From the NCBI GenBank assembly GCA_964016885.1, contig OZ024749.1, positions 24,304,001-24,368,000 of the forward strand: a stretch of DNA of 64,000 nucleotides. Direction: 5' to 3'. The notes beneath the pieces are model-generated. The model did no database searches. It was not told the origin of the DNA and saw nothing but the letters and a program-made list of their open reading frames with translations. Below, in pieces: positions 4,651-64,000 of this stretch. Origin of the DNA: Eledone cirrhosa (taxonomy: Eukaryota). Each line of letters begins with the position of its first letter. Position 1 is the first letter of the stretch. Made by a program: the position numbers and the translations under genes.

Positions 4651-4805
4651 TTCATTATTTCTGAAGACGGCGTATATATGAGTTAGGTATGTATGTTTAA
4701 TCTTGATAATTTGTATAATTTTGTATAATTTTGTACATAGATCTGTTAAATATGCATACCAATTATAACACATATATACCCTAGAAACGATCGTTAAATA
4801 GTGAA
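4651..4805 (+). ncRNA. Type I hammerhead ribozyme motif with very long stem II (N1 pLTR)
   Basis: ttcattattt-CTGAAGA-[116 nt hairpin]-GAAAC-gatc-GTT-aaatagtgaa. Stem I is 10 bp, and stem III is the palindrome AACGATCGTT. Confidence 0.75.
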
Positions 4806-5148
4806 CTTTTTTTGTTTAATATAAGGAATTGTTTGTTCATTATTTGTTTAATATTTTATCTTGACTCTGTATACCGTTTATCTTTCACCGAAAGTGGATT
4901 TTCATTACATCTCTTCTTTCCATGATATCCGGAATACATTGAGTTCTTCATACGGATTGGACACTACCGTAAACTCTTGGTAGATTTATCTACATAATTT
5001 TGCTCCTATTTTCACGGAAATATTCGTATTTTTGTACTGTATGTGTGTATTAATTTTATATTTATGTATAAACATATATATATGTATGATTTTGTAAACC
5101 CATATACATTTAGTTGAGCTCTTTCAATTGTCCATCATCCATATCACA

Positions 5149-7592
5149 ATGGAAAAACAATATTTAGGAACCTCCTTAAAAAACATACCAATACCTTCTA
5201 AGGACGACTTCTTACTCCTTATGATTCAGAAAACTAATAATTTTATCAGAAGGGTTAGATGGAGAGCCTACCACTTCGATAGGAAATCTAAACAAGCAGA
5301 TCGGAAATATATGTATGATTTCAACACTTACAAGAATCCACCACACAACTTTTTACTTGAAGACTTCGAGAAAGACCTTTTTAATTTAATTAAACACCTC
5401 AAATTTAAAAAGTATAAATCCGTCTTTCAAAAGGACCTTGATTCTACCCTATTGGACCTAAAAAAGTCTAAAAAAAAATCCATGTCCACTCGGACAAAAC
5501 TGGTAACTTGTATCATATGGATATTGAACATTATAATGAGTTCATATATAAAGAACTCAGAAAAAATTATAAAAAATCTAATAATGTGTCACTCACCAAC
5601 ATCAACAACAAAACACACAACATAGTAAAAAAACTAAATATTGAAGATAGAACTGAACCTTTGGCATTGAAAAGACCACACTTCAACCTGAAAGATCACA
5701 AATCTAACTTTAACTCTAATCCTTCTATTAGACTTATATGTCCCTCCAAATCAGATATTGGAATAATTAGCAAAAAAATTTTAGATAGAGTCATCCCACA
5801 AATAAGAAAATACGTTATTTTACCACTCTGGGAAAACACCTCCCAGGTAATTAATTGGTTTAAAAATATTAGGTGTAAATCTTCTGCTTCTTTCCTACAA
5901 TTTGATATAGATAATTACTATTCTTCTATATCACCCATACTCCTGAACAAAGCATTAATATTTGCTAAAAATAGATCTAATTTAACTTCGGATGACATTA
6001 ACATTATTACACATGCTAGACAAACACTTATTGAATTTCAGAATGAATACTGGACCAGAAACACATACAGTAATCTTTTTGATATTACTATGGGTTCAAG
6101 CGATTCCGCCCAAATTACTGATCTTGTGGGCCTCTTTCTCCTTTTCAACATAAATGCCTCTTTTCCCCACCTCAAAGGTGGTTTATATCGTGATGACTGT
6201 CTTCTTCTTTCTAACAACCTTAGCCTTTCAGAAATCGAAAAAAACAAAAAGCATATTAGAACTTTCCTTAAAGACTATTATAATCTTAATATTACTTTTG
6301 AAAAAACAAGTAAAGTAGTAAATTTCCTAGATATAACTTTAGATTTAGCTACGGGTATATACCAACCTTACCATAAACCTAACCAAAACTTACATTACAT
6401 ACACTCACAATCTAATCACCCTAAATCTATCCTTAAAAACCTTGCATATAATATATCACTTAGAATTTCTAACCTTTCTTCTAACCAAGATGTATTTGAT
6501 AAAAATGCGACCTTTTATAATGAAGCTCTAGATAGAAGTGGCCACAAAAATAGATTAGAGTATATACCTTCTACTAAAAATACTGAAAGCATACAGCATA
6601 ATATTACCAACAAACACCAAATGAAAAGTACACACCTAAATGCCACCCACAGTATACCCCAAAATACTAAATCTTCTAATATAAAGTATAGTAACCCTCA
6701 AAAAACTACTCATCATACAACTATAATAAATATTAATAATAAAACTCCTAATAAAAAAGATAAAACACCTAAATCTACAAATATAACTAAAAATAGTTGT
6801 GGTGAGATCATTAACATTAATCCTCCTAGTAAAAATCATGATACAACATATAAAAATAATAAAAATAATAAACAACATAGAAACCGTAATAGACGAGTTA
6901 CTTGGTATAATGCTCCTTTTAATTTACAAGTTAAGGATAATATTGCTAAAAAATTTTTTTATATCCTTGAGAAAAACTTCCCGCCAAACCACAAATACCA
7001 TCAAATCTTAAATAGGTCTACAGTTAAATTCTCATACTCTACAACAAATAACATAAAACAAAATATAAGTGCATATAATGCATATAAATGTAAGAAAACC
7101 ATAAGTATACCACCAGTACATCAAATTAACAATAATATCTCCTCAAATACAGAATTAACGAAAGGATGTAACTGTAGAAACAAAACAAACTGCCCATTAA
7201 AAGGGAATTGTCTTGTTAACAACATAGTCTATAAATGTAATGTTAAAACTAAAGATTCTATTTGCTCATATATAGGAGCTACCTCTAACAATTTTAAGAC
7301 AAGGTATAATACCCACAAACATAGCTTTAAAAATGCCGCACTGGCTAATACAACATCTCTAGCAGAAAAAATCAATAGTTATAAAAATAAAAATATAAAA
7401 TATGATTTGACCTGGAGTGTGCTCAAAAGAGCCACCCCTTATCAAAATAATAGAAAGGAATGTAGATTATGTTCCCAAGAACTATTTGAAATAATGAAGT
7501 CTAGGGATATCTTATTAAATAAAAGACAGGAATTAATTATATCGTGTAATCATAAACTAAAAAAAACATTTAAATATTATAAACCTAATTAA
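5149..7592 (+). CDS. Naiad-type PLE polyprotein (RT + C-terminal GIY-YIG), one frameshift in the A-run at ~5470-5478
   Basis: N-terminus SLKNIPIP...RVRWRA, then SDKTGNLY. RT motifs FDIDNYY, ITMGS, GLYRDD, FLDITLDL; WYNAPF; CNCRNKTNCPLKGNCL; IVYKC..YIGAT..R..H; CRLC..CNH. Joins track ORFs 5128..5625 and 5508..7592. Confidence 0.92.
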
Positions 7593-12093: not shown

Positions 12094-12144
12094 AGCTTCC
12101 TGAAGATTTCATCTGAATGAAACAGTTCTAGTCCTGTAGAAGCT
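12094..12144 (+). ncRNA. Type I hammerhead ribozyme motif (N5)
   Basis: agcttc-CTGAAGA-tttcatctgaat-GAAACAG-ttctagtc-CTGTA-gaagct; predicted GUA cleavage. Confidence 0.82.
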
Positions 12145-22303: not shown

Positions 22304-24659
22304 GAGTGTCTGTTTGTGTGTGTGTGTGTGTGTGTGTATTTGAGCGTGATTGATGGAGTGTGGATGGTATGAAGGTAAGTTTACAAATGTAAGTATTTAT
22401 ATATTTTAGTGGCAGAATGTGTATTCAAAACATATTTATTCTATTAGTTATTAACCAGATTTAATAGAGTCAGGGGAATCTTTTAGAATGTTTCTTTCTC
22501 TTTAAGTCAGCGTACACTACGAAATAAATCATTAATCGTAAAGATAATACACGATCCATACATATATATATATATATGTAACTATATAGGTAATACTATA
22601 TATATATATACATACATACATACATATGTATATACATATACACACATATATATATATATATATTTATGTATATATATATGTATATATATATAAATATATA
22701 TTTATATATATAAAATATATTATGTATATATATATAAATATATAAGTATATATATATACATATATATGTATATATATATATATATAAAGATATATGTATA
22801 TATATATATATAAAGGTATATGTATATATATAAGTATGAATATATGTATATGCATAATGTTTGTATAAATATACATGTATATATATATGTTATATGTATA
22901 AATATATATGTATATTTATATATTATATGTATAAATATATATGTATATTTATATATTATATGTATAAATATATATGTATATTTATGTTATATGTATGAAT
23001 ATATATGTATATTTATATTTAATATGTATAAATATATATATATAAATATATTTGTATATATATATATTTATATTTATATATATGTATAAATACATTTTTA
23101 TAAATATATATGTATATTTATATATATGTATAAATACATTTGTATATATAAATATATATATATATATATCTATATATATATGTATAAATATATATATATA
23201 TATAAATATGTATAATTATATATATATATATATGTATATATATACAATATTACAATATTAAATAAATGGAAACTATATTTATAAAACCATATTTATTTCA
23301 TTATATATATTTCGGGGATATCATATTAACAATATGCTATGCCTTCCTCAGACAAAATACAATATAAACAGTTTTATAGATAAATAGATTCGACATACCG
23401 TAACAACACCGACTTGCATTTGAAGAGGTTGAACTGGCAGTGAAAAAATTTTACACAGAGAGAAAGAAAGAGAAAAAAAAAAAAAAAAAAAGAAAGAAAG
23501 AAAGACATAAAACGAAGAAAAGGAAGAAAAAGAAGAAATGCATGGAACAAAATAGAGAGATGGAAAGATAGATAAAGAGAAGAACTTCATGTAAAGAAAC
23601 AGGAAGATATATATATATATATAGAGAGAGGAAATAGAGATAGATACATATATATATAGAAAATTAGGTAGTGGGAGGTCAGTTGAGTAAATGTATCAAT
23701 GATACATTTATTTATTTATTTATTTATTTAGCTCTAGTATTAATGTAAGGGAGATATATATATAGAGAAAAAAATATAGAGAGAGAAAAATAGCGAGAGA
23801 AAAGATTCAAAAATAGCCAGATATATTCGAGGCGTAAAAACCCTATGCTTTAATGTATTAGTATTTATAAAACTTCCACTATATTGTAAATATCAGTATT
23901 CCTGAATGAGACAAGTATCCATAGTGTGTGAAAATTAATTATCTTATGTTTAGTTTTTTAAAAAAATTCATATGTTTATGTGATAGCTACAAACATCCAT
24001 GTGAATCCACATGATCAACTCTGCAAACTCTAGGTTCACGGAAAACATTCTCAATGTGGTATAAAAATTTGAGTATACATATATGTGTATTATTATTCCT
24101 GTCTTTACTCTACAAGATTATCTATCAAGCAGAAATAGAGAGCAGATTTCAATATACTAATAAAAATATATATCAGAAACAAAACAAAAAAAATAACAAT
24201 AATAATAATAAGTAATAATAAAATAGAAAACTAAAAAAATATTACGAAATAATATTACATATTAAAAATATTACATATTAAAAAATTTACATATTAAAGA
24301 TATTAAAAATAAAAATAAAAAATATTAGAAAATACTACAATAATAAAAAATAAAAATAAAAATAAACCACAAAGATCAACCCTTCAAAATTAATTGACAA
24401 TATATTGCCAAGTTCATTATAAGCATCAGAGTCGAAAAACAGACAAAGCCAAAAATTATCTATCAAATCACATCTAGCAAAGATCATTTCAAAAAGTTTA
24501 TGATGCCCAATTTGGTCTACATGTGTTCCTATATTTAATATGTGGAACCGACGTAGTTAAAAGAATTAGAGTCAGTATTAACATTACAATTGTATACTAG
24601 ATATAACATTAAATCTCAACACATGTCTCCACTATCCTTTTAACAAGTTGAATGAAAAC

Positions 24660-34533: not shown

Positions 34534-34680
34534 GTATATATATATTTATATATATATGTATATATATATATGTATATGTATATATATGTATATATATGTA
34601 TATATATATATATGTATATATATGTATATATATATATATGTATATATATGTGTATATATATATATATGTATATATATATA

Positions 34681-36463
34681 AATTGAAACAAAATGAAAAC
34701 GAAATTTCATTTCTCACTCTTAGTATGGCACTTACTTAAATGTAAGTATGCATGTATACGTACATACATATATGTATACAGACGTACAGTAGCATGCACA
34801 TATATATATATATACACATATATATACATATGCATACAGGTACACATACATATATGCACGTATCAGTTTAGCGGCGCTAACGTCGCTTTGTTCGTTTGTA
34901 AACAAACTGAACAGCCTGAATTTATGCCATACGGTGTTAAGGCAACCACGTCACCTTTTTGTTCAACACTGACACAGGAACGATGTACTAGTTTCAAGCT
35001 TGTTAGCTATCATCAGCACCGTTTACCCATCTGCCAGATAGTTGAACGTTCGAAAGTATATACTTTCCTTATGAAAATTAACGGCTGAGCAGCCTAATTT
35101 GCATATTGAGTGAGTTAAATCGGTCAGGCATACCGAAAACGATAAATTGAAACAAAATGAAAACGAAATTTCATTTCTCACTCTTAGTATGGCACTTACT
35201 TAAATGTAAGTATGCATGTATACGTACATACATATATGTATACAGACGTACAGTAGCATGCACATATATATATATATACACATATATATACATATGCATA
35301 CAGGTACACATACATATATGCACGTATCAGTTTAGCGGCGCTAACGTCGCTTTGTTCGTTTGTAAACAAACTGAACAGCCTGAATTTATGCCATACGGTG
35401 TTAAGGCAACCACGTCACCTTTTTGTTCAACACTGACACAGGAACGATGTACTAGTTTCAAGCTTGTTAGCTATCATCAGCACCGTTTACCCATCTGCCA
35501 GATAGTTGAACGTTCGAAAGTATATACTTTCCTTATGAAAATTAACGGCTGAGCAGCCTAATTTGCATATTGAGTGAGTTAAATCGGTCAGGCATACCGA
35601 AAACGATAAATTGAAACAAAATGAAAACGAAATTTCATTTCTCACTCTTAGTATGGCACTTACTTAAATGTAAGTATGCATGTATACGTACATACATATA
35701 TGTATACAGACGTACAGTAGCATGCACATATATATATATATACACATATATATACATATGCATACAGGTACACATACATATATGCACGTATCAGTTTAGC
35801 GGCGCTAACGTCGCTTTGTTCGTTTGTAAACAAACTGAACAGCCTGAATTTATGCCATACGGTGTTAAGGCAACCACGTCACCTTTTTGTTCAACACTGA
35901 CACAGGAACGATGTACTAGTTTCAAGCTTGTTAGCTATCATCAGCACCGTTTACCCATCTGCCAGATAGTTGAACGTTCGAAAGTATATACTTTCCTTAT
36001 GAAAATTAACGGCTGAGCAGCCTAATTTGCATATTGAGTGAGTTAAATCGGTCAGGCATACCGAAAACGATAAATTGAAACAAAATGAAAACGAAATTTC
36101 ATTTCTCACTCTTAGTATGGCACTTACTTAAATGTAAGTATGCATGTATACGTACATACATATATGTATACAGACGTACAGTAGCATGCACATATATATA
36201 TATATACACATATATATACATATGCATACAGGTACACATACATATATGCACGTATCAGTTTAGCGGCGCTAACGTCGCTTTGTTCGTTTGTAAACAAACT
36301 GAACAGCCTGAATTTATGCCATACGGTGTTAAGGCAACCACGTCACCTTTTTGTTCAACACTGACACAGGAACGATGTACTAGTTTCAAGCTTGTTAGCT
36401 ATCATCAGCACCGTTTACCCATCTGCCAGATAGTTGAACGTTCGAAAGTATATACTTTCCTTA
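34681..36463 (-). repeat. Tandem array of 464 bp units (3.8 copies), one HHR per unit; retrozyme-like
   Basis: Units start at 34681, 35145, 35609 and 36073 and appear identical. (TA)n on both sides. Confidence 0.92.
34979..35023 (-). ncRNA. Minimal type I hammerhead (also 35443-35487, 35907-35951, 36371-36415)
   Basis: Minus strand: aacggtg-CTGATGA-tagctaacaagctt-GAAAC-ta-GTA-catcgtt. Confidence 0.85.
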
Positions 36464-36523
36464 TATATGTATATATATATATGTATATATATGTATATAT
36501 ATATATATATATGTATATATATG

Positions 36524-36556
<33 letters not shown>

Positions 36557-36595
36557 GTATATATATATATGTATATATATGTATATATATATATA

Positions 36596-38242
36596 TTGGA
36601 ATAAATGCTCTGAAATAGTGATATATATGTGAATATAGACATAGAATATTCGAAAATATTCTGTATGTTTATAATAAACATTTTGAAGACCTAATCGCTA
36701 TAGAATAGAATACGTCAGAGCATTTATTCCAATTTCTAATTTCTGCCGGACCGGCAACCGCTCTTTCAAACCAGTTCCTGTACACAGCTAAGTATTCTAT
36801 AAGTCTCTAGCTGTGTCATTCTCGATAAAAGCACTGGATATGTAGTCCTGATGATTTCTAACGAGAATGAAACGCGTAGATTACTTCCCTTGCTTTTATC
36901 GAGAATCTAATTGTAATACGTGACGTATTCTATTCTATAGCGATTAGGTCTTCAAAATGTTTATTATAAACATACAGAATATTTTCGAATATTCTATGTC
37001 TATATTCACATATATATCACTATTTCAGAGCATTTATTCCAATTTCTAATTTCTGCCGGACCGGCAACCGCTCTTTCAAACCAGTTCCTGTACACAGCTA
37101 AGTATTCTATAAGTCTCTAGCTGTGTCATTCTCGATAAAAGCACTGGATATGTAGTCCTGATGATTTCTAACGAGAATGAAACGCGTAGATTACTTCCCT
37201 TGCTTTTATCGAGAATCTAATTGTAATACGTGACGTATTCTATTCTATAGCGATTAGGTCTTCAAAATGTTTATTATAAACATACAGAATATTTTCGAAT
37301 ATTCTATGTCTATATTCACATATATATCACTATTTCAGAGCATTTATTCCAATTTCTAATTTCTGCCGGACCGGCAACCGCTCTTTCAAACCAGTTCCTG
37401 TACACAGCTAAGTATTCTATAAGTCTCTAGCTGTGTCATTCTCGATAAAAGCACTGGATATGTAGTCCTGATGATTTCTAACGAGAATGAAACGCGTAGA
37501 TTACTTCCCTTGCTTTTATCGAGAATCTAATTGTAATACGTGACGTATTCTATTCTATAGCGATTAGGTCTTCAAAATGTTTATTATAAACATACAGAAT
37601 ATTTTCGAATATTCTATGTCTATATTCACATATATATCACTATTTCAGAGCATTTATTCCAATTTCTAATTTCTGCCGGACCGGCAACCGCTCTTTCAAA
37701 CCAGTTCCTGTACACAGCTAAGTATTCTATAAGTCTCTAGCTGTGTCATTCTCGATAAAAGCACTGGATATGTAGTCCTGATGATTTCTAACGAGAATGA
37801 AACGCGTAGATTACTTCCCTTGCTTTTATCGAGAATCTAATTGTAATACGTGACGTATTCTATTCTATAGCGATTAGGTCTTCAAAATGTTTATTATAAA
37901 CATACAGAATATTTTCGAATATTCTATGTCTATATTCACATATATATCACTATTTCAGAGCATTTATTCCAATTTCTAATTTCTGCCGGACCGGCAACCG
38001 CTCTTTCAAACCAGTTCCTGTACACAGCTAAGTATTCTATAAGTCTCTAGCTGTGTCATTCTCGATAAAAGCACTGGATATGTAGTCCTGATGATTTCTA
38101 ACGAGAATGAAACGCGTAGATTACTTCCCTTGCTTTTATCGAGAATCTAATTGTAATACGTGACGTATTCTATTCTATAGCGATTAGGTCTTCAAAATGT
38201 TTATTATAAACATACAGAATATTTTCGAATATTCTATGTCTA

Positions 38243-38246
<4 letters not shown>
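36596..38246 (+). repeat. Tandem array of 310 bp units (4.9 copies) with 120 bp inverted leader, one HHR per unit; retrozyme-like
   Basis: The same motif occurs at 36841, 37151, 37461, 37771 and 38081. 36596-36716 is the reverse complement of ~36921-37042. (TA)n flanks. Confidence 0.93.
36842..36884 (+). ncRNA. Minimal type I hammerhead (also starting 37152, 37462, 37772, 38082)
   Basis: gtagtc-CTGATGA-tttctaacgagaat-GAAAC-gc-GTA-gattac. Confidence 0.87.
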
Positions 38247-38295
<49 letters not shown>

Positions 38296-38301
38296 AAATA
38301 T

Positions 38302-38335
<34 letters not shown>

Positions 38336-38585
38336 GTATATAAATGTATAAATATATATATATATATATGTCTAAATGTATAAATATATATATGTATAAA
38401 TATATATATATACATATGTATAAATGTATAAATATATATATGTATAAATGTATATATAAATATGTATATAAATGTATAAATATATATACATATACAGATA
38501 TATGTATATATATGTATAAATGTATATATATATATATGTATATATATGTATAAATGTATATATATATATGTATATATATGTATAA

Positions 38586-38622
<37 letters not shown>

Positions 38623-38732
38623 TAATTTAATATATCTACTAACATAAGCGCACGGATGTACGCTAATGCCAGCAAATACACAGGTTATGTCATAGTACCT
38701 AGGTGGTTCAATGCAGGAGGATGCAGAACAAT

Positions 38733-38870
38733 AATATAAAAGATGTAAAATAAGAAAATTTAAAAAAATTTTTTTATAAAAAATTAACTTACTTACTTAA
38801 ATTTTTAAGTAAGTAAGTTAATTTTTAAAAAAAACTTTTTTAAAAATTTTCTTATTTTACGTCTTTTATA
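38733..38870. repeat. AT-rich palindrome, ~68 bp arms
   Basis: aaaagatgtaaaataagaaaattt...ttaacttacttacttaaa / tttaagtaagtaagttaa...ttttcttattttacgtctttt. Confidence 0.8.
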
Positions 38871-39119: not shown

Positions 39120-41495
39120 TTTAATAAGGTCACAGGGACCTCCTCGACTCTAATCGAGGAAGGCATTAACACCATATGGAAAACATCTGTGTCCAACGAT
39201 AACTGCCAAAGAAGGTAAAAAACAACATAGTGACTCGAAACAGCAAATTACCCACCTTCTTCCACCTGATTAAAACACATAAACAAGGACCCGATTTGAA
39301 AATCAGGCCCATTGTCTCTAGCGTGGAGGGCCCACTCTACAAAATATCGTGGCTGCTCTCCACACTACTGAAACCCATTCTACACACACTACCAGCCCAC
39401 GTCTGCAGCTCAAAGGAGGTCTTAGAGCGACTACACCATCTGGCGCCCAACACCAGAAAGGACAACGGTTATGCCTTCAGTCTTGATGTGGTCGCCCTTT
39501 ATACCTCCGTACCAGCATCCCCAGCTGTCGATCTGTTGACCGAACGAGTCCGAGGATCTGACTTACACTGCTTCGGACTCACACACACGGACATCCACCA
39601 ACTCCTCTCCTTCGTTGTGGATGCACTCTTCAATTTCCTCGGCCACACGTACAAACAAATCTCTGGGCTACCTATGGGCTCTAGTCTGTCCGGCATACTT
39701 GCGATCTCGTACATGGACCACCTGGAACGCAAGGCACTCAATACCTGCCAACCCAACGCCGTCGCCTTCTACTCCAGATACGTTGATGACATCCTGATAC
39801 TTACTTCTTCCCGGGAGATGGCGAATGAAATTCACCAAATCTTCAACGATACTGACCATCACGTCGATTTCACCATCGAACACCCAGGAGAAGACGGGTC
39901 ACTCGCCCTCCTCGACTTCCGTATCAACATCTCGGAAGAAGGAGACATAAACACCACCTTCTACCGCAAAGCAGCGTGCAAGGACTTATTTGTGCATTAT
40001 AACTCAGCCCTCCCCAACAACGCTAAGAGAGGCTATGTCCTAAATGAACTGACACGGATCACTAACAGATGCAGCGACCCGATGGGTGGTCTCACCCATA
40101 CCGCGCAATTCCGTAATCTACTCAGATCTAATGGTTATCCCAAGCGACTGATTAACGGAATTAGAGACCCCAGACCCAATAGACAGACACCCACTAGAAA
40201 CTTAAATAAAAGCAGGTGCTTCTTTAAAATCCCCCACCTGAGTGAATATACCACGAACGCCATCCGCAGGGCCATACGGACGGAGGGACTTGACATACAT
40301 TTGGCCCACACAGGACTTTCGCTGCGAAGATGCCTCTCCAACAAACCCGACGAGTCAGATGGGACGTGTTCCTTCAGCAACTGCCCGATACGGGGGGAAG
40401 ATTGCCTACGCACCTATGTCGTATATAAGATTCAATGCGATAAATGTAACAAGTTTTACATAGGTAGCACCATCCGACCCCTACATGTTCGTATCAAGGA
40501 ACATATCAACACCAACGCATCTTCCTTCCGTAAACACATCCTTAAATGCGGAAACCCACAGGGTAGACCCTTGGTCACAGTCCTAGCGACTGAACGCAGC
40601 ATCGGATCCTTAAGGATAAAGGAAGCACTTGTTATTAAGAACCTCAGACCCCCACTTAACAACCGGGCTGAGAGAAATGAGCTGACATGGCTAACTTAAC
40701 CATAGTGACCATTCACAGCCTACGGCCTGCTATCTTCACACACACGCACGTATATGCATACCCATACGCATACACACACACATCTATATTTATACACGCA
40801 CACATGTTTTTACAACCTACCACCTTTCACACCCTTTGATTTCCAGCTTCTACAGCCCACTATTTTTCACACACAAACGCACTCACACATATACACACAC
40901 AGTTACACACACATGTATACCCATACGCTTACACACACACATCTATATTTATACACGCACACATGTTTTACAACCTACCACCTTTCACACCCTTTGATTT
41001 CCAGCTTCTACAGCCCACTATCTTTCACACACACACACACTCACACATATACACACTTACACTTATACACACAGTTACACACACATATATATTTACACAC
41101 ACATATCTTACGGCTTTCACACGCTAGCGCACCCTCTTGATTTAACCCATTTGGTCAGTAGCTTTTGCCACAGCCTATCACGCGTAAGCGCATTCTTTCC
41201 CTCGTTTAAATTTTAAATAATTTTCTCCCCATAACGGCATTCCTGTCTTAACAACATCACAACTTTCTCCGCTTGGCCTGTTTCCCCCCCCCCCCCCGTT
41301 TTGGAACTTTCCCCCGTTGATGGGCGTGAGCCCGAAATATTGGGATTAAATCTCCACTACGGTAACCCTTCTACCTTTGTTTTGTTTTCATCTTTGTCTC
41401 TCTCAATTTTCACTTTCACCTGTTTTTCCTATCTATCTTTCACTTCCTACCTCGAGATTTCCCTCTGCAATGTTGTGGCTTTCTTAACTACGTAT
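39120..41495 (+). mobile_element. 5'-truncated Penelope/Poseidon-like PLE
   Basis: RT + GIY-YIG ORF, then a CA-rich 3' UTR with a ~175 bp duplication and a degenerate HHR at 41310-41345. (TA)n flanks. Confidence 0.88.
39230..40699 (+). CDS. PLE reverse transcriptase + GIY-YIG endonuclease (N-terminally truncated, 489 aa open)
   Basis: [73 protein letters not shown]....P.LN. Confidence 0.92.
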
Positions 41496-47737: not shown

Positions 47738-47804
47738 GAAGTGGTGCTCTGAAATAGCTATATATATATGAATGTATATATAGTGTATTTTGCAATACAC
47801 TTTA

Positions 47805-48258
<454 letters not shown>

Positions 48259-59841: not shown

Positions 59842-60032
59842 GTATATATATATGTATGTGTATATATATATATATATGTATGTATGTGTATATATATATA
59901 TATATATATATGTATGCATGTATGTATATATATATATATATATATATATACGTTATCCGGGTTGAATCGGAGTTAACCACAGTAAGTAAGGTACTCAATA
60001 CATAGCAGAGTATAAAAGTTTGAATATAGATG

Positions 60033-60083
60033 AGATTCTACAGGACTAGAACTGTTTCATTCTTTAGAAATCATCAGGAATCT
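60033..60083 (-). ncRNA. Type I hammerhead motif
   Basis: agattc-CTGATGA-tttctaaagaat-GAAACAG-ttctagtc-CTGTA-gaatct. Confidence 0.85.
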
Positions 60084-60531
60084 GGGTATCAACAAATAAA
60101 AATGGTATTTATAGGTCTCTACAAGTGGTAGGAGAGGGTGGGGAGTGGGATGGGTGTAGGTCATTGGTTGATAGAAAAGGGAATTCATTAAAAGCTAATT
60201 CTACAAAGCTATAGTTTATTTTTATTTTTATTTATTTATGTTTTTAGAGTAACAAAGGCAGACAGAATTCTATAAACAGGTTCCGGATGGCATACCATTC
60301 CTTGTCATTAAGTTTCTGTTAAGCTAACAGATGTCTATAAGATCAGTGGGGGGTCAGTCATGGTAGAAAGAATTAAAGAAAAGGGAGGTTCTTTAAAAGC
60401 TAAAATCATTAAGGTTCTACTAAGTGACAAAGGTTTAGAGAATTATGTAGACAGATTCAAAATACTGAGTGCATATCTTACAATTATCTTGTGTGTATGT
60501 GTGTGTATATGTATATATGTCTGTGTATATG

Positions 60532-60573
<42 letters not shown>

Positions 60574-60732
60574 CTATGTGTCTTTATGTGTATATGTATA
60601 CACATGTATATTTGTGTTTGTATGTATGTGTGTGAGTGTATTTTTATATGTGTATGTATGTGTGTGTGTGTGTATATATATGTATGTGTGTGTGTATATA
60701 TGTGTGTGTGTATATATATATATGTATTTTTA

Positions 60733-60772
<40 letters not shown>

Positions 60773-61366
60773 TATATATGTGTGTATGTATATGTATGTA
60801 TGTGAATATATTTATATATATGTGTGTGTGTTTTTATGTGTGTATATGTGTATGGGTATGTGTGTTTATGGTTGCGGGTGAGTGTGTGAGTGAGTGTGTT
60901 TTTTTGTGAATGTGTCTGTTCATTTTTGGCATATAGTTGATTAGTTTAAGAGAAGTTCGAAGATAATTGTAAGATATGCACTCAGTATTTTGAATCTGTC
61001 TACATAATTCTCTAAACCTTTGTCACTTAGTAGAACCTTAATGATTTTAGCTTTTAAAGAACCCCCCTTTTCTTTAATTATTTCTACCATGACTGACCCC
61101 CCACTGATCTCATAGACATCTGTTAGCTTAACAGAAACTTAATGACAAGGAATGGTATGCCATCCGGAACCTGTTATATAGAATTCTGTCTGCCTTTGTT
61201 ACTCTAAAAACATAAATAAATAAAAATAAATTAAACTATAGCTTTGTAGAATTAGCTTTTAATGAATTCCCTTTTCTATCAACCAATGACCTACACCCAT
61301 CCCACTCCCCACCCTCTCCTACCACTTGTAGAGACCTATAAATACCATTTTTATTTTTTGATACCC

Positions 61367-61417
61367 AGATTCCTGATGATTTCTAAAGAATGAAACAGTT
61401 CTAGTCCTGTAGAACCT
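61367..61417 (+). ncRNA. Type I hammerhead motif
   Basis: Mirror of 60033-60083 with one stem I mismatch. TATAAATA at 61337. Confidence 0.8.
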
Positions 61418-61432
61418 AATCTATATTAAAAC

Positions 61433-61507
<75 letters not shown>

Positions 61508-63417: not shown

Positions 63418-64000
63418 ATATATATATATATATATTTATATGTATTAATAAGTACTCGGATATAACTATATATATATATATATATTCATACATGTGCCTG
63501 TGCTCACATGGATGTATGCGCGCGTTCTTTTCTTTTTTAGACATGTTGCTCACAAACTCTGTCCATTTAGTCCTGAATTTGTTTTTATCCTTCAAAATGT
63601 TGTACTTCTTCACTATCTTTATTTTGTTCTCTTTTCGTAACATATTTTCTACCTTCCTTTGTTTTATGTATTCTAGGTGCGTTAGGTATTTCAGCTTTGT
63701 TGCTTATCACCAAAGTATATTACTTTTGTCTGCATTCGTAGCTTTAGTTAATATATAGTATCGAAAGTACCGTACGTATCAGGTTTTCCCCATTAACTTC
63801 TCTCATATTTAAAGTTTCTAACGACTGAAAAATGATAGCAGAAAAAAATTGTAGTGTACCCATGATAAGCTTATAACTTTATAAATACATAGGACTATAC
63901 ACAACACATTCACTTTGGACGTCCCCCTCAGATAACAATGATCTCACCAAAGCAATATAGCGGACACATTTTAACATGTCCGCCACTCGACTAACAATAA

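What the first reader, a model, noticed from the sequence alone, without database searches (positions are those of the whole stretch)
36596..38246. 310 bp retrozyme-like array with a PLE-style inverted leader and a ribozyme related to Naiad pLTRs
Seen: five HHRs at 310 bp spacing. A perfect 16 bp stem (attctcgataaaagca/tgcttttatcgagaat) encloses each one, and further hairpins occur (acacagcta/tagctgtgt; gaatatt/aatattc). A 120 bp inverted leader mirrors the PLE fold-backs. The core CCTGATGATTTCTAA..GAATGAAAC nearly matches the pLTR HHR at 61372 and resembles the one at 12099, which precedes a Naiad ORF. Inference: a structured circular-RNA parasite derived from, and mobilised by, Naiad-type PLEs. 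This is the best candidate for a new system in this window.
Basis: partly seen in the sequence, partly recalled or inferred. Interest (0 to 1): 0.88.

Follow-up and report, generated by a model that had tools for sequence, protein, structure and literature searches.

The report
Two-armed hammerhead retrozyme with Penelope footprint
This is one of about a thousand young insertions of a 310-base non-coding repeat with a predicted self-cutting RNA motif; the insertions are back-to-back arrays ending at two fixed sites, which suggests a Penelope-type jumping-gene enzyme copied the RNA, likely a small circle, from both sides of a DNA break.

Summary
In detail: five 310-bp units, each with a type I hammerhead motif, and a 123-bp inverted arm, all inside (TA)n. 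It is a metazoan non-LTR retrozyme, a published class whose link to Penelope-like elements (PLEs) is already proposed. The family has about 1,000 young insertions. The 'leader' is the short arm of a two-armed insertion. In 80 insertions picked by a tailed end, 71 had an opposed arm ending 26 nt earlier and none had a second tail, which is the PLE one-sided 'tail'. Both arms share array-wide variants (27 haplotypes in 70 insertions) and no single-unit variant is mirrored (0 of about 106). This points to a one-unit template, likely a circle. Two insertions show multi-unit templates, so that route is not exclusive. The Naiad claim fails: the ribozyme-bearing PLEs here are Hydra-clade, the likeness is confined to stem II, and no autonomous partner was found. 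Cleavage, RNA and circles are untested. The scan reported this family before at other loci of this genome.

The parts
36463..36596 (.). left (TA)n target microsatellite
36597..36717 (-). short inverted arm (the 'leader'): unit positions 207 to 329, 3' end pointing out into (TA)n; boundary ambiguous by 2 nt
   Evidence: exact reverse complement; same end as 988 exact tail-(TA) junctions genome-wide
36597..36622 (-). 26-nt one-sided tail (unit positions 304-329); 34-36 nt if the AT run before it is counted
   Evidence: compare 30-40 bp PLE tail in PMC8557442 and PMC11167929
36715..36717 (.). 3-nt microhomology joining the inner ends of the two arms
   Evidence: 1-7 nt overlaps in 42 of 72 other junctions
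36715..38257 (+). long arm: about 5.0 tandem 310-bp units, ending tail-less at unit position 293-303 in (TA)n
36836..36888 (+). type I hammerhead motif of unit 1 (stem I with bulge, CUGAUGA, 4-bp stem II over a U-U mismatch, 2-bp palindromic stem III); predicted cut after 36878
   Evidence: motif scan, folds; not detected by Rfam
37146..37198 (+). hammerhead motif, unit 2 (predicted cut after 37188)
37456..37508 (+). hammerhead motif, unit 3 (predicted cut after 37498)
37766..37818 (+). hammerhead motif, unit 4 (predicted cut after 37808)
38076..38128 (+). hammerhead motif, unit 5 (predicted cut after 38118)
36818..36906 (+). 16-bp stem enclosing the ribozyme (36818-36833 with 36891-36906), repeated in each unit
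36937..37113 (+). candidate RT-recognition region (unit 223-310 plus 1-89): tetraloop hairpin, both end sites, downstream helix; about 75-80% identical in a second, 318-bp family that carries a different ribozyme
   Evidence: function inferred
38247..38620 (.). right (TA)n target microsatellite

Best explanation
This is a two-armed insertion of a young non-coding hammerhead repeat (a metazoan non-LTR retrozyme) that was likely written into a (TA)n tract by a Penelope-like reverse transcriptase/endonuclease priming on both strands of a break, most often on a one-unit RNA that is probably a circle. Steps: (1) arrays are transcribed and self-cleave to 310-nt monomers that a host ligase closes (inferred from published retrozymes; untested here). 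(2) A PLE enzyme nicks both strands of (TA)n (inferred from PAc in vitro). (3) One target end primes at unit position 329 and the other at 303 (the two end sites are shown; that they are priming sites is inferred). (4) Each RT runs through the ribozyme cut site for several units (shown: 127 of 140 arms exceed one unit). (5) The two cDNA ends join by microhomology (shown junction pattern). A minority of events used multi-unit templates. The enzyme family is not identified.
For: One-sided tail: 23 of 23 two-armed insertions with both ends in view have one tailed and one tail-less end. In an independent set of 80 picked by a tailed end, 71 have an opposed arm ending at 302-303, none has a second tail, 5 are one-armed and 4 run off the fetched stretch. 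Six other element families in the window and fetched loci show the same two-end pattern with their own spacing. PAc cleaves and extends both strands of AT-rich DNA and starts at two sites that define the tail (PMC11167929). Common template: 112 array-wide variant calls are present in both arms; 27 haplotypes in 70 insertions. One-unit bottleneck: 0 of about 106 testable unit-level differences are mirrored singly in the other arm (the one apparent case, L192, is an alignment artefact), while rare variants are fixed across whole arrays. Inner ends ignore the cut site (5 of 144 within 160-170, 5.1 expected). Arms reach 19 units, and two exceed 25. Unit-private divergence is 0.047%.
Against: Two insertions show the same multi-unit pattern in both arms in register: L209 (outer two units of one haplotype, inner units of another) and L053+L034 (position 83). 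A single monomer circle cannot give that. Variants repeated 5-7 units apart in one arm (L043, L047, L175) show that duplication after insertion, or assembly error, also lengthens arrays. If source arrays were very young when copied, linear multimers would also leave no mirrored variants. The A>G excess among fixed variants is not significant (9 vs 4 T>C, p 0.07; against private variants p 0.18) and stem-keeping is not significant (p 0.22). In PAc, ribozyme cleavage was not needed and uncleaved RNA was the substrate. Only 1 of 9 Xenopus retrozyme dimers cleaved in vitro. No autonomous element shares the tail region.
Confidence: 0.6

Rival explanations
1. Same PLE two-ended priming, but the template is an uncleaved linear multimer transcribed from a parent array; length is regained afterwards by DNA-level unit duplication, and the ribozyme and any circles are bystanders.
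For: Mirrored multi-unit patterns in L209 and L053+L034; periodic repeats of private variants; PAc uses unprocessed RNA; a 2-bp stem III may cleave slowly (axolotl monomers 6-22% in 1 h, PMC7229834); Li et al. favour local amplification by unequal crossover.
Against: New mutations should first be inherited as single-unit variants mirrored in both arms; 0 of about 106 are, while rare variants are fixed across both arms. L184 has a block in one arm that the other arm lacks.
Confidence: 0.27
2. The second arm is a fold-back copy of the first cDNA, or self-priming on an antisense template (model of PMC3846280), not a second priming event.
For: Would explain mirrored blocks; palindromic junctions are reported for PLEs and occur here (L046b, L203, L231).
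Against: Only 3 of 72 junctions have the two inner ends within 10 nt of the same unit position, about 5 expected by chance (my count). Either arm can be longer (tail arm longer in 37 of 70), yet the two outer ends are always the two fixed sites. RT errors would be mirrored and none is, if RT errors are a fair share of private variants (assumed).
Confidence: 0.08
3. One reading: the repeat descends from, and is moved by, the PLE whose pLTR carries the 61372/12099 ribozyme (called Naiad).
For: Best stem II match among the ribozyme clusters sampled (0.68); that family is young, has intact 713-aa ORFs and targets (TA)n, so it could act in trans.
Against: It is Hydra-clade, not Naiad. Stems I and III are unrelated, its loop II varies freely among copies, no similarity outside the ribozyme, and its two ends lie about 60-67 nt apart, not 26.
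Confidence: 0.04
4. An ordinary minisatellite or an assembly artefact.
For: The units in the window are identical and sit among microsatellites.
Against: About 1,000 dispersed insertions with fixed end sites, locus-specific haplotypes and varied junctions; the unit and other inversion joints are in independent public runs.
Confidence: 0.01

Closest known systems
Metazoan non-LTR retrozymes (Cervera and de la Pena 2020, PMC7229834, parts 2-4 of 6 read; Li, Clavereau and Pollet 2026, bioRxiv 10.64898/2026.07.22.740005, parts 1-3 of 5 read; supplements of both not seen)
   Same: Tandem 150-450 bp non-coding units, one type I hammerhead each, low GC, highly paired monomer, coexistence with PLEs; axolotl HHR_Amex2 has the same 2-bp stem III and U-U at the base of stem II. 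Circle-templated RT by PLEs is their proposed life cycle.
   Different: The parts read describe plain tandem arrays and infer the PLE link from co-occurrence and pLTR similarity. They do not report opposed arms, fixed two-site ends or haplotypes shared by both arms. Here no homologous pLTR was found, unlike 21 Xenopus PLE matches.
EN+ Penelope-like element insertions: inverted 5'-truncated copy plus one-sided 30-40 bp tail (PMC8557442 passages and section 15; PMC3846280 passages; PAc mechanism PMC11167929 parts 1-2 of 4)
   Same: Head-to-head arms, tail at one end only, AT-rich or (TA)n targets, two start sites.
   Different: No ORF; arms are multi-unit arrays of one 310-nt unit; short AT microhomology with the target at both ends, whereas PAc started at a site not homologous to the target.
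Hydra-clade PLEs (PMC8557442, section 11 passages)
   Same: Describes the window's ribozyme-bearing coding elements (5098-7592, 12277 on, pLTR at 61372): C-terminal EN, RW[RK], DKT, CxCx5C, hammerheads, (TA)n targets.
   Different: Their end spacing here is about 60-137 nt and their pLTRs show no similarity to the unit outside the ribozyme.
LINE-1 twin priming (recalled, no call)
   Same: Two target-primed cDNAs on one RNA joined by microhomology give an inversion.
   Different: There the second primer anneals at variable internal sites of a linear RNA; here both sites are fixed and each arm repeats the unit.

Membership tests
Metazoan non-LTR retrozyme | tandem units of 150-450 bp, each with a type I hammerhead | tested here: met
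   310-bp units, five complete motifs; no Rfam hit
Metazoan non-LTR retrozyme | non-coding, no LTR, dispersed multi-copy family | tested here: met
   no ORF of 120 aa or more within the array; 988 tail ends, 14,869 internal junctions
Metazoan non-LTR retrozyme | monomer predicted to be highly self-paired | tested here: met
   z -4.7 linear, z -4.0 circular
Metazoan non-LTR retrozyme | self-cleavage | not testable with these tools
   0 of 27 fixed variants hit the 12 core positions vs 9 of 93 private ones; too few to be significant
Metazoan non-LTR retrozyme | expressed as linear and circular unit-length RNA | not testable with these tools
Metazoan non-LTR retrozyme | target-site duplication | tested here: inconclusive
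   both ends lie in (TA)n, where a duplication cannot be seen
PLE-mobilised insertion | inverted 5'-truncated copy adjoining the forward copy | tested here: met
   71 of 76 resolvable tail-selected insertions
PLE-mobilised insertion | tail of 30-40 bp at one end only | tested here: met
   26 nt between fixed sites, 34-36 with the AT run; never on both ends
PLE-mobilised insertion | sequence shared with an autonomous PLE terminus | tested here: not met
   9 non-retrozyme or unrelated targets (best 2 of 200 shuffles, not significant after 9 tests) and two short-tailed families (8 to 195 of 200); the sample of PLE families is incomplete
Naiad (window elements at 5098, 12277, 61372) | N-terminal GIY-YIG endonuclease, DKA motif, no canonical hammerhead | tested here: not met
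   C-terminal endonuclease, DKT, hammerheads present
Hydra clade (same elements) | C-terminal EN, RWK-type motif, DKT, CxCx5C linker, hammerhead, (TA)n target | tested here: met
   RWR at 38, DKT at 116, YRDD at 347, CxCx5C at 566 of 713 aa in 5 intact copies; motif check only, no tree built

The most novel reading that the evidence does not exclude
A dimeric Penelope-type RT loads on one ribozyme RNA circle, primes from both strands of a (TA)n break at two fixed sites 26 nt apart and rolls round the circle in both arms. Retrozyme families keep a protein-recognition module (tetraloop hairpin plus tail) while exchanging their ribozymes, and locus L184 records an A-to-I edit of the circle made while it was being copied.
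Probability: 0.35. Interest if true: 0.75.

Novelty: new variant of a known kind. Interest (0 to 1): 0.54.

Why it matters
How animal retrozymes get back into DNA, and how PLEs make their inverted arms and one-sided tails, are both stated as open in the papers read (PMC7229834 discussion; PMC8557442 section 15). This family offers about a thousand near-identical insertion products, a 310-nt substrate with two mapped start sites, and several young PLE families with intact ORFs in the same genome. That makes circle versus multimer templating, two-ended priming and partner identity testable in one in vitro assay. If the circle route holds, it is natural RNA-circle-to-genome writing by a compact RT-endonuclease.

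Tried and rejected
Rfam: the whole-window listing showed only microRNA noise on TA repeats in the 150 rows printed of 301; nothing relevant on the array or the 61372 pLTR. Expression: no RNA holder listed, which says nothing either way. Two runs of unknown kind hold the unit as one unbranched 340-nt contig (310+30, closed on itself) with the commonest haplotype; a circle or a collapsed array gives the same, so it is unused. A recurrent single-unit G305A was an artefact of picking loci by likeness to the window unit; it is absent from the unbiased loci. A tail-like motif at 63447-63490 is single-copy. RNA-editing signal and stem conservation are not significant. No pile-up of inner ends at the cut site. 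L192 'mirrored' variant is an alignment artefact. Partner hunt: Hydra-type families have 60-137 nt end spacing; two CCHH-type C-terminal-EN families have 35-44 nt, closer to this family's 26-36, but no clear sequence match. No N-terminal-EN element was among the 30 GIY-YIG loci translated, which does not exclude Naiads from the genome. A genome-wide count of the window's own haplotype was not obtained. Literature: 0 papers hold 'retrozyme' and 'twin priming'; searches listed no paper on opposed retrozyme arrays; a 2026 octopus repeat annotation has no occurrence of 'ribozyme' (PMC13282606, passages). Supplements of the retrozyme and PLE papers were not seen and may show such structures.

Full report
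Observation. The array is as described. Tandem Repeats Finder gives period 310, 5.0 copies, 36715-38257. Units 1-4 are identical and unit 5 departs only where it meets (TA)n. Each unit holds a type I hammerhead motif with a predicted cut after 36878 and every 310 nt on. It sits inside a 16-bp stem, and the monomer folds better than all 100 shuffles (z -4.7). Rfam does not detect it. The leader is an exact 123-nt reverse complement of unit positions 207-331 with a 3-nt overlap at the junction.

Family. The genome is 3.0 Gb; earlier notes of the scan call the host a cephalopod, which I did not test. Exact patterns give 988 tail-to-(TA) junctions and 14,869 internal junctions. A looser tail motif that also takes in a second family gives 21,780 matches, control 0. 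Unit-private divergence is 93 differences in 198,299 aligned bases, so the family is very young. No fetched copy is joined to a PLE ORF.

Anatomy. The leader is the short arm of a two-armed insertion: the ribozyme-sense 3' ends of both arms point outward into (TA)n. Ends fall at two sites, unit position 303 and position 329. All 23 two-armed insertions first examined, the window's included, had one of each; four more loci were one-armed. I then fetched 80 further loci on contig 1, chosen only by an exact tailed end. Seventy have an adjoining inverted arm ending at 302-303, and L227 has one across a gap in my chaining, which makes 71. None has a second tail, 5 are one-armed (one at an N gap), and 4 run off the stretch. 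The inner junctions show 1-7 nt microhomology in 42 of 72, none in 7, longer overlaps of 10-44 nt in 6, and inserted bases in 17. This is the published PLE layout, an inverted truncated copy with a 30-40 bp tail at one end (PMC8557442 passages; PMC3846280 passages). The purified PAc protein cuts and extends both strands of AT-rich DNA and starts at two sites that bound the tail (PMC11167929). Coding PLE families held here show the same two-end pattern with their own spacing.

Template. In 70 complete insertions there are 27 haplotypes, and 112 array-wide variant calls appear in both arms. Of about 106 unit-level differences testable in the other arm, none is mirrored singly; the one apparent case is an alignment artefact. 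A linear multi-unit template would pass new mutations on first as mirrored single-unit variants, so most events seem to pass through one unit. Of 140 arms, 127 exceed one unit, the longest complete arm has 19, and inner ends are not enriched at the cut site (5 of 144, 5.1 expected). Rolling on a circle is the simplest reading; repeated jumping on a linear monomer is not excluded. I took up this test after reading the scan's earlier notes.

Against a pure circle model. In L209 both arms carry one haplotype in the outer two units and another inside. In L053+L034 both arms carry the same two-unit pattern at position 83. These need a multi-unit template or a coupled switch: 2 of the 89 young insertions typed. 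In L184 the tail arm reads A in four units and then G at position 130, while the other arm is all G; this fits an edit during copying or starts in different units of a multimer. Variants repeated 5-7 units apart show later duplication.

Naiad claim. Naiads have an N-terminal endonuclease and lack canonical hammerheads. The ribozymes at 12099 and 61372 lie upstream of ORFs with RWR, DKT, YRDD, CxCx5C and a C-terminal endonuclease; five intact 713-aa copies were read. These are Hydra-clade motifs; no tree was built. A census of 435 hammerhead motifs in 0.98 Mb of held sequence ranks the 61372 type ninth of 22 listed clusters in overall likeness (0.36), below the neighbouring 464-bp array (0.54). 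It leads only in stem II, 0.68 against 0.64. Outside the ribozyme the unit matches none of nine pLTR or array targets.

What is conserved instead. A second family of about 318 bp is 75-80% identical over unit positions 223-310 and 1-89, ends at the same two sites, and has a different ribozyme. Both families have a hairpin just before site 303, closed by UUCG in one and a GNRA-type loop in most copies of the other. I infer that this region, not the ribozyme, is what the enzyme reads. No coding element sharing it was found. Two CCHH-type families have end spacings of 35-44 nt, nearer to this family's 26-36 than the 60-137 of Hydra types, but without a clear sequence match. The partner is open.

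Prior art and verdict. Non-LTR retrozymes, their circles and the PLE hypothesis are published (PMC7229834, parts 2-4 of 6; bioRxiv 10.64898/2026.07.22.740005, parts 1-3 of 5). The searches run listed no report of opposed retrozyme arrays with fixed two-site ends; supplements were not seen. The scan noted this family at several other loci. It is a new variant of a known kind. Its value is as genomic evidence for, and a ready substrate to test, a proposed mechanism. Interest 0.54.

Noticed in passing
window 34678-36464, minus strand: A 464-bp tandem array (3.9 identical units) in (TA)n with its own type I hammerhead of the same architecture: a second retrozyme family, common genome-wide.
   Followed up: partly
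window 47745-47806; L031-L042, L048-L050, L058-L068: A 318-321 bp sister family sharing the tail region but not the ribozyme; many copies have the core variant UUGAUAA, a compensatory U3-A8 pair (that this variant is active is recalled, not tested).
   Followed up: partly
window 4651-4806: The pLTR of the Hydra-type element at 5098-7592 holds a hammerhead with a stem II of about 115 nt and a 10-bp stem I, missed by short-spacer scans (read by eye); its two ends lie about 137 nt apart. Long-stem-II motifs also at 23351, 26947, 58809, 32091, 34280 and 41827.
   Followed up: partly
window 59953-61435: Two-armed, 5'-truncated insertion of a young Hydra-type family with ends about 67 nt apart; dozens of copies elsewhere have a 758-codon open frame.
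   Followed up: yes
window 39203-41495: A young, abundant C-terminal-EN PLE of CCHH type (at least 150 copies at 97-100% in the EN region); its 41-44 nt tail overlaps the start codon.
   Followed up: partly
window 38621-38868: Small fold-back insertion of another family, whose end resembles the roughly 55-nt-tail family seen in L033.
   Followed up: no
L260, L267, L276 and related loci: A Neptune-like family whose pLTR has a hammerhead-like motif with UUGAAAA and GCAA in place of the usual core, and a 35-39 nt tail.
   Followed up: partly
L184 (unit position 130); L209: Block-wise haplotype changes within arms: one-sided in L184, mirrored in L209; in both mirrored cases (L209, L053+L034) the change comes after exactly two units, unexplained.
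   Followed up: partly
genome-wide: A short type I hammerhead pattern gives about 119,000 matches (with double counts) against about 2,500 for the reversed control.
   Followed up: no
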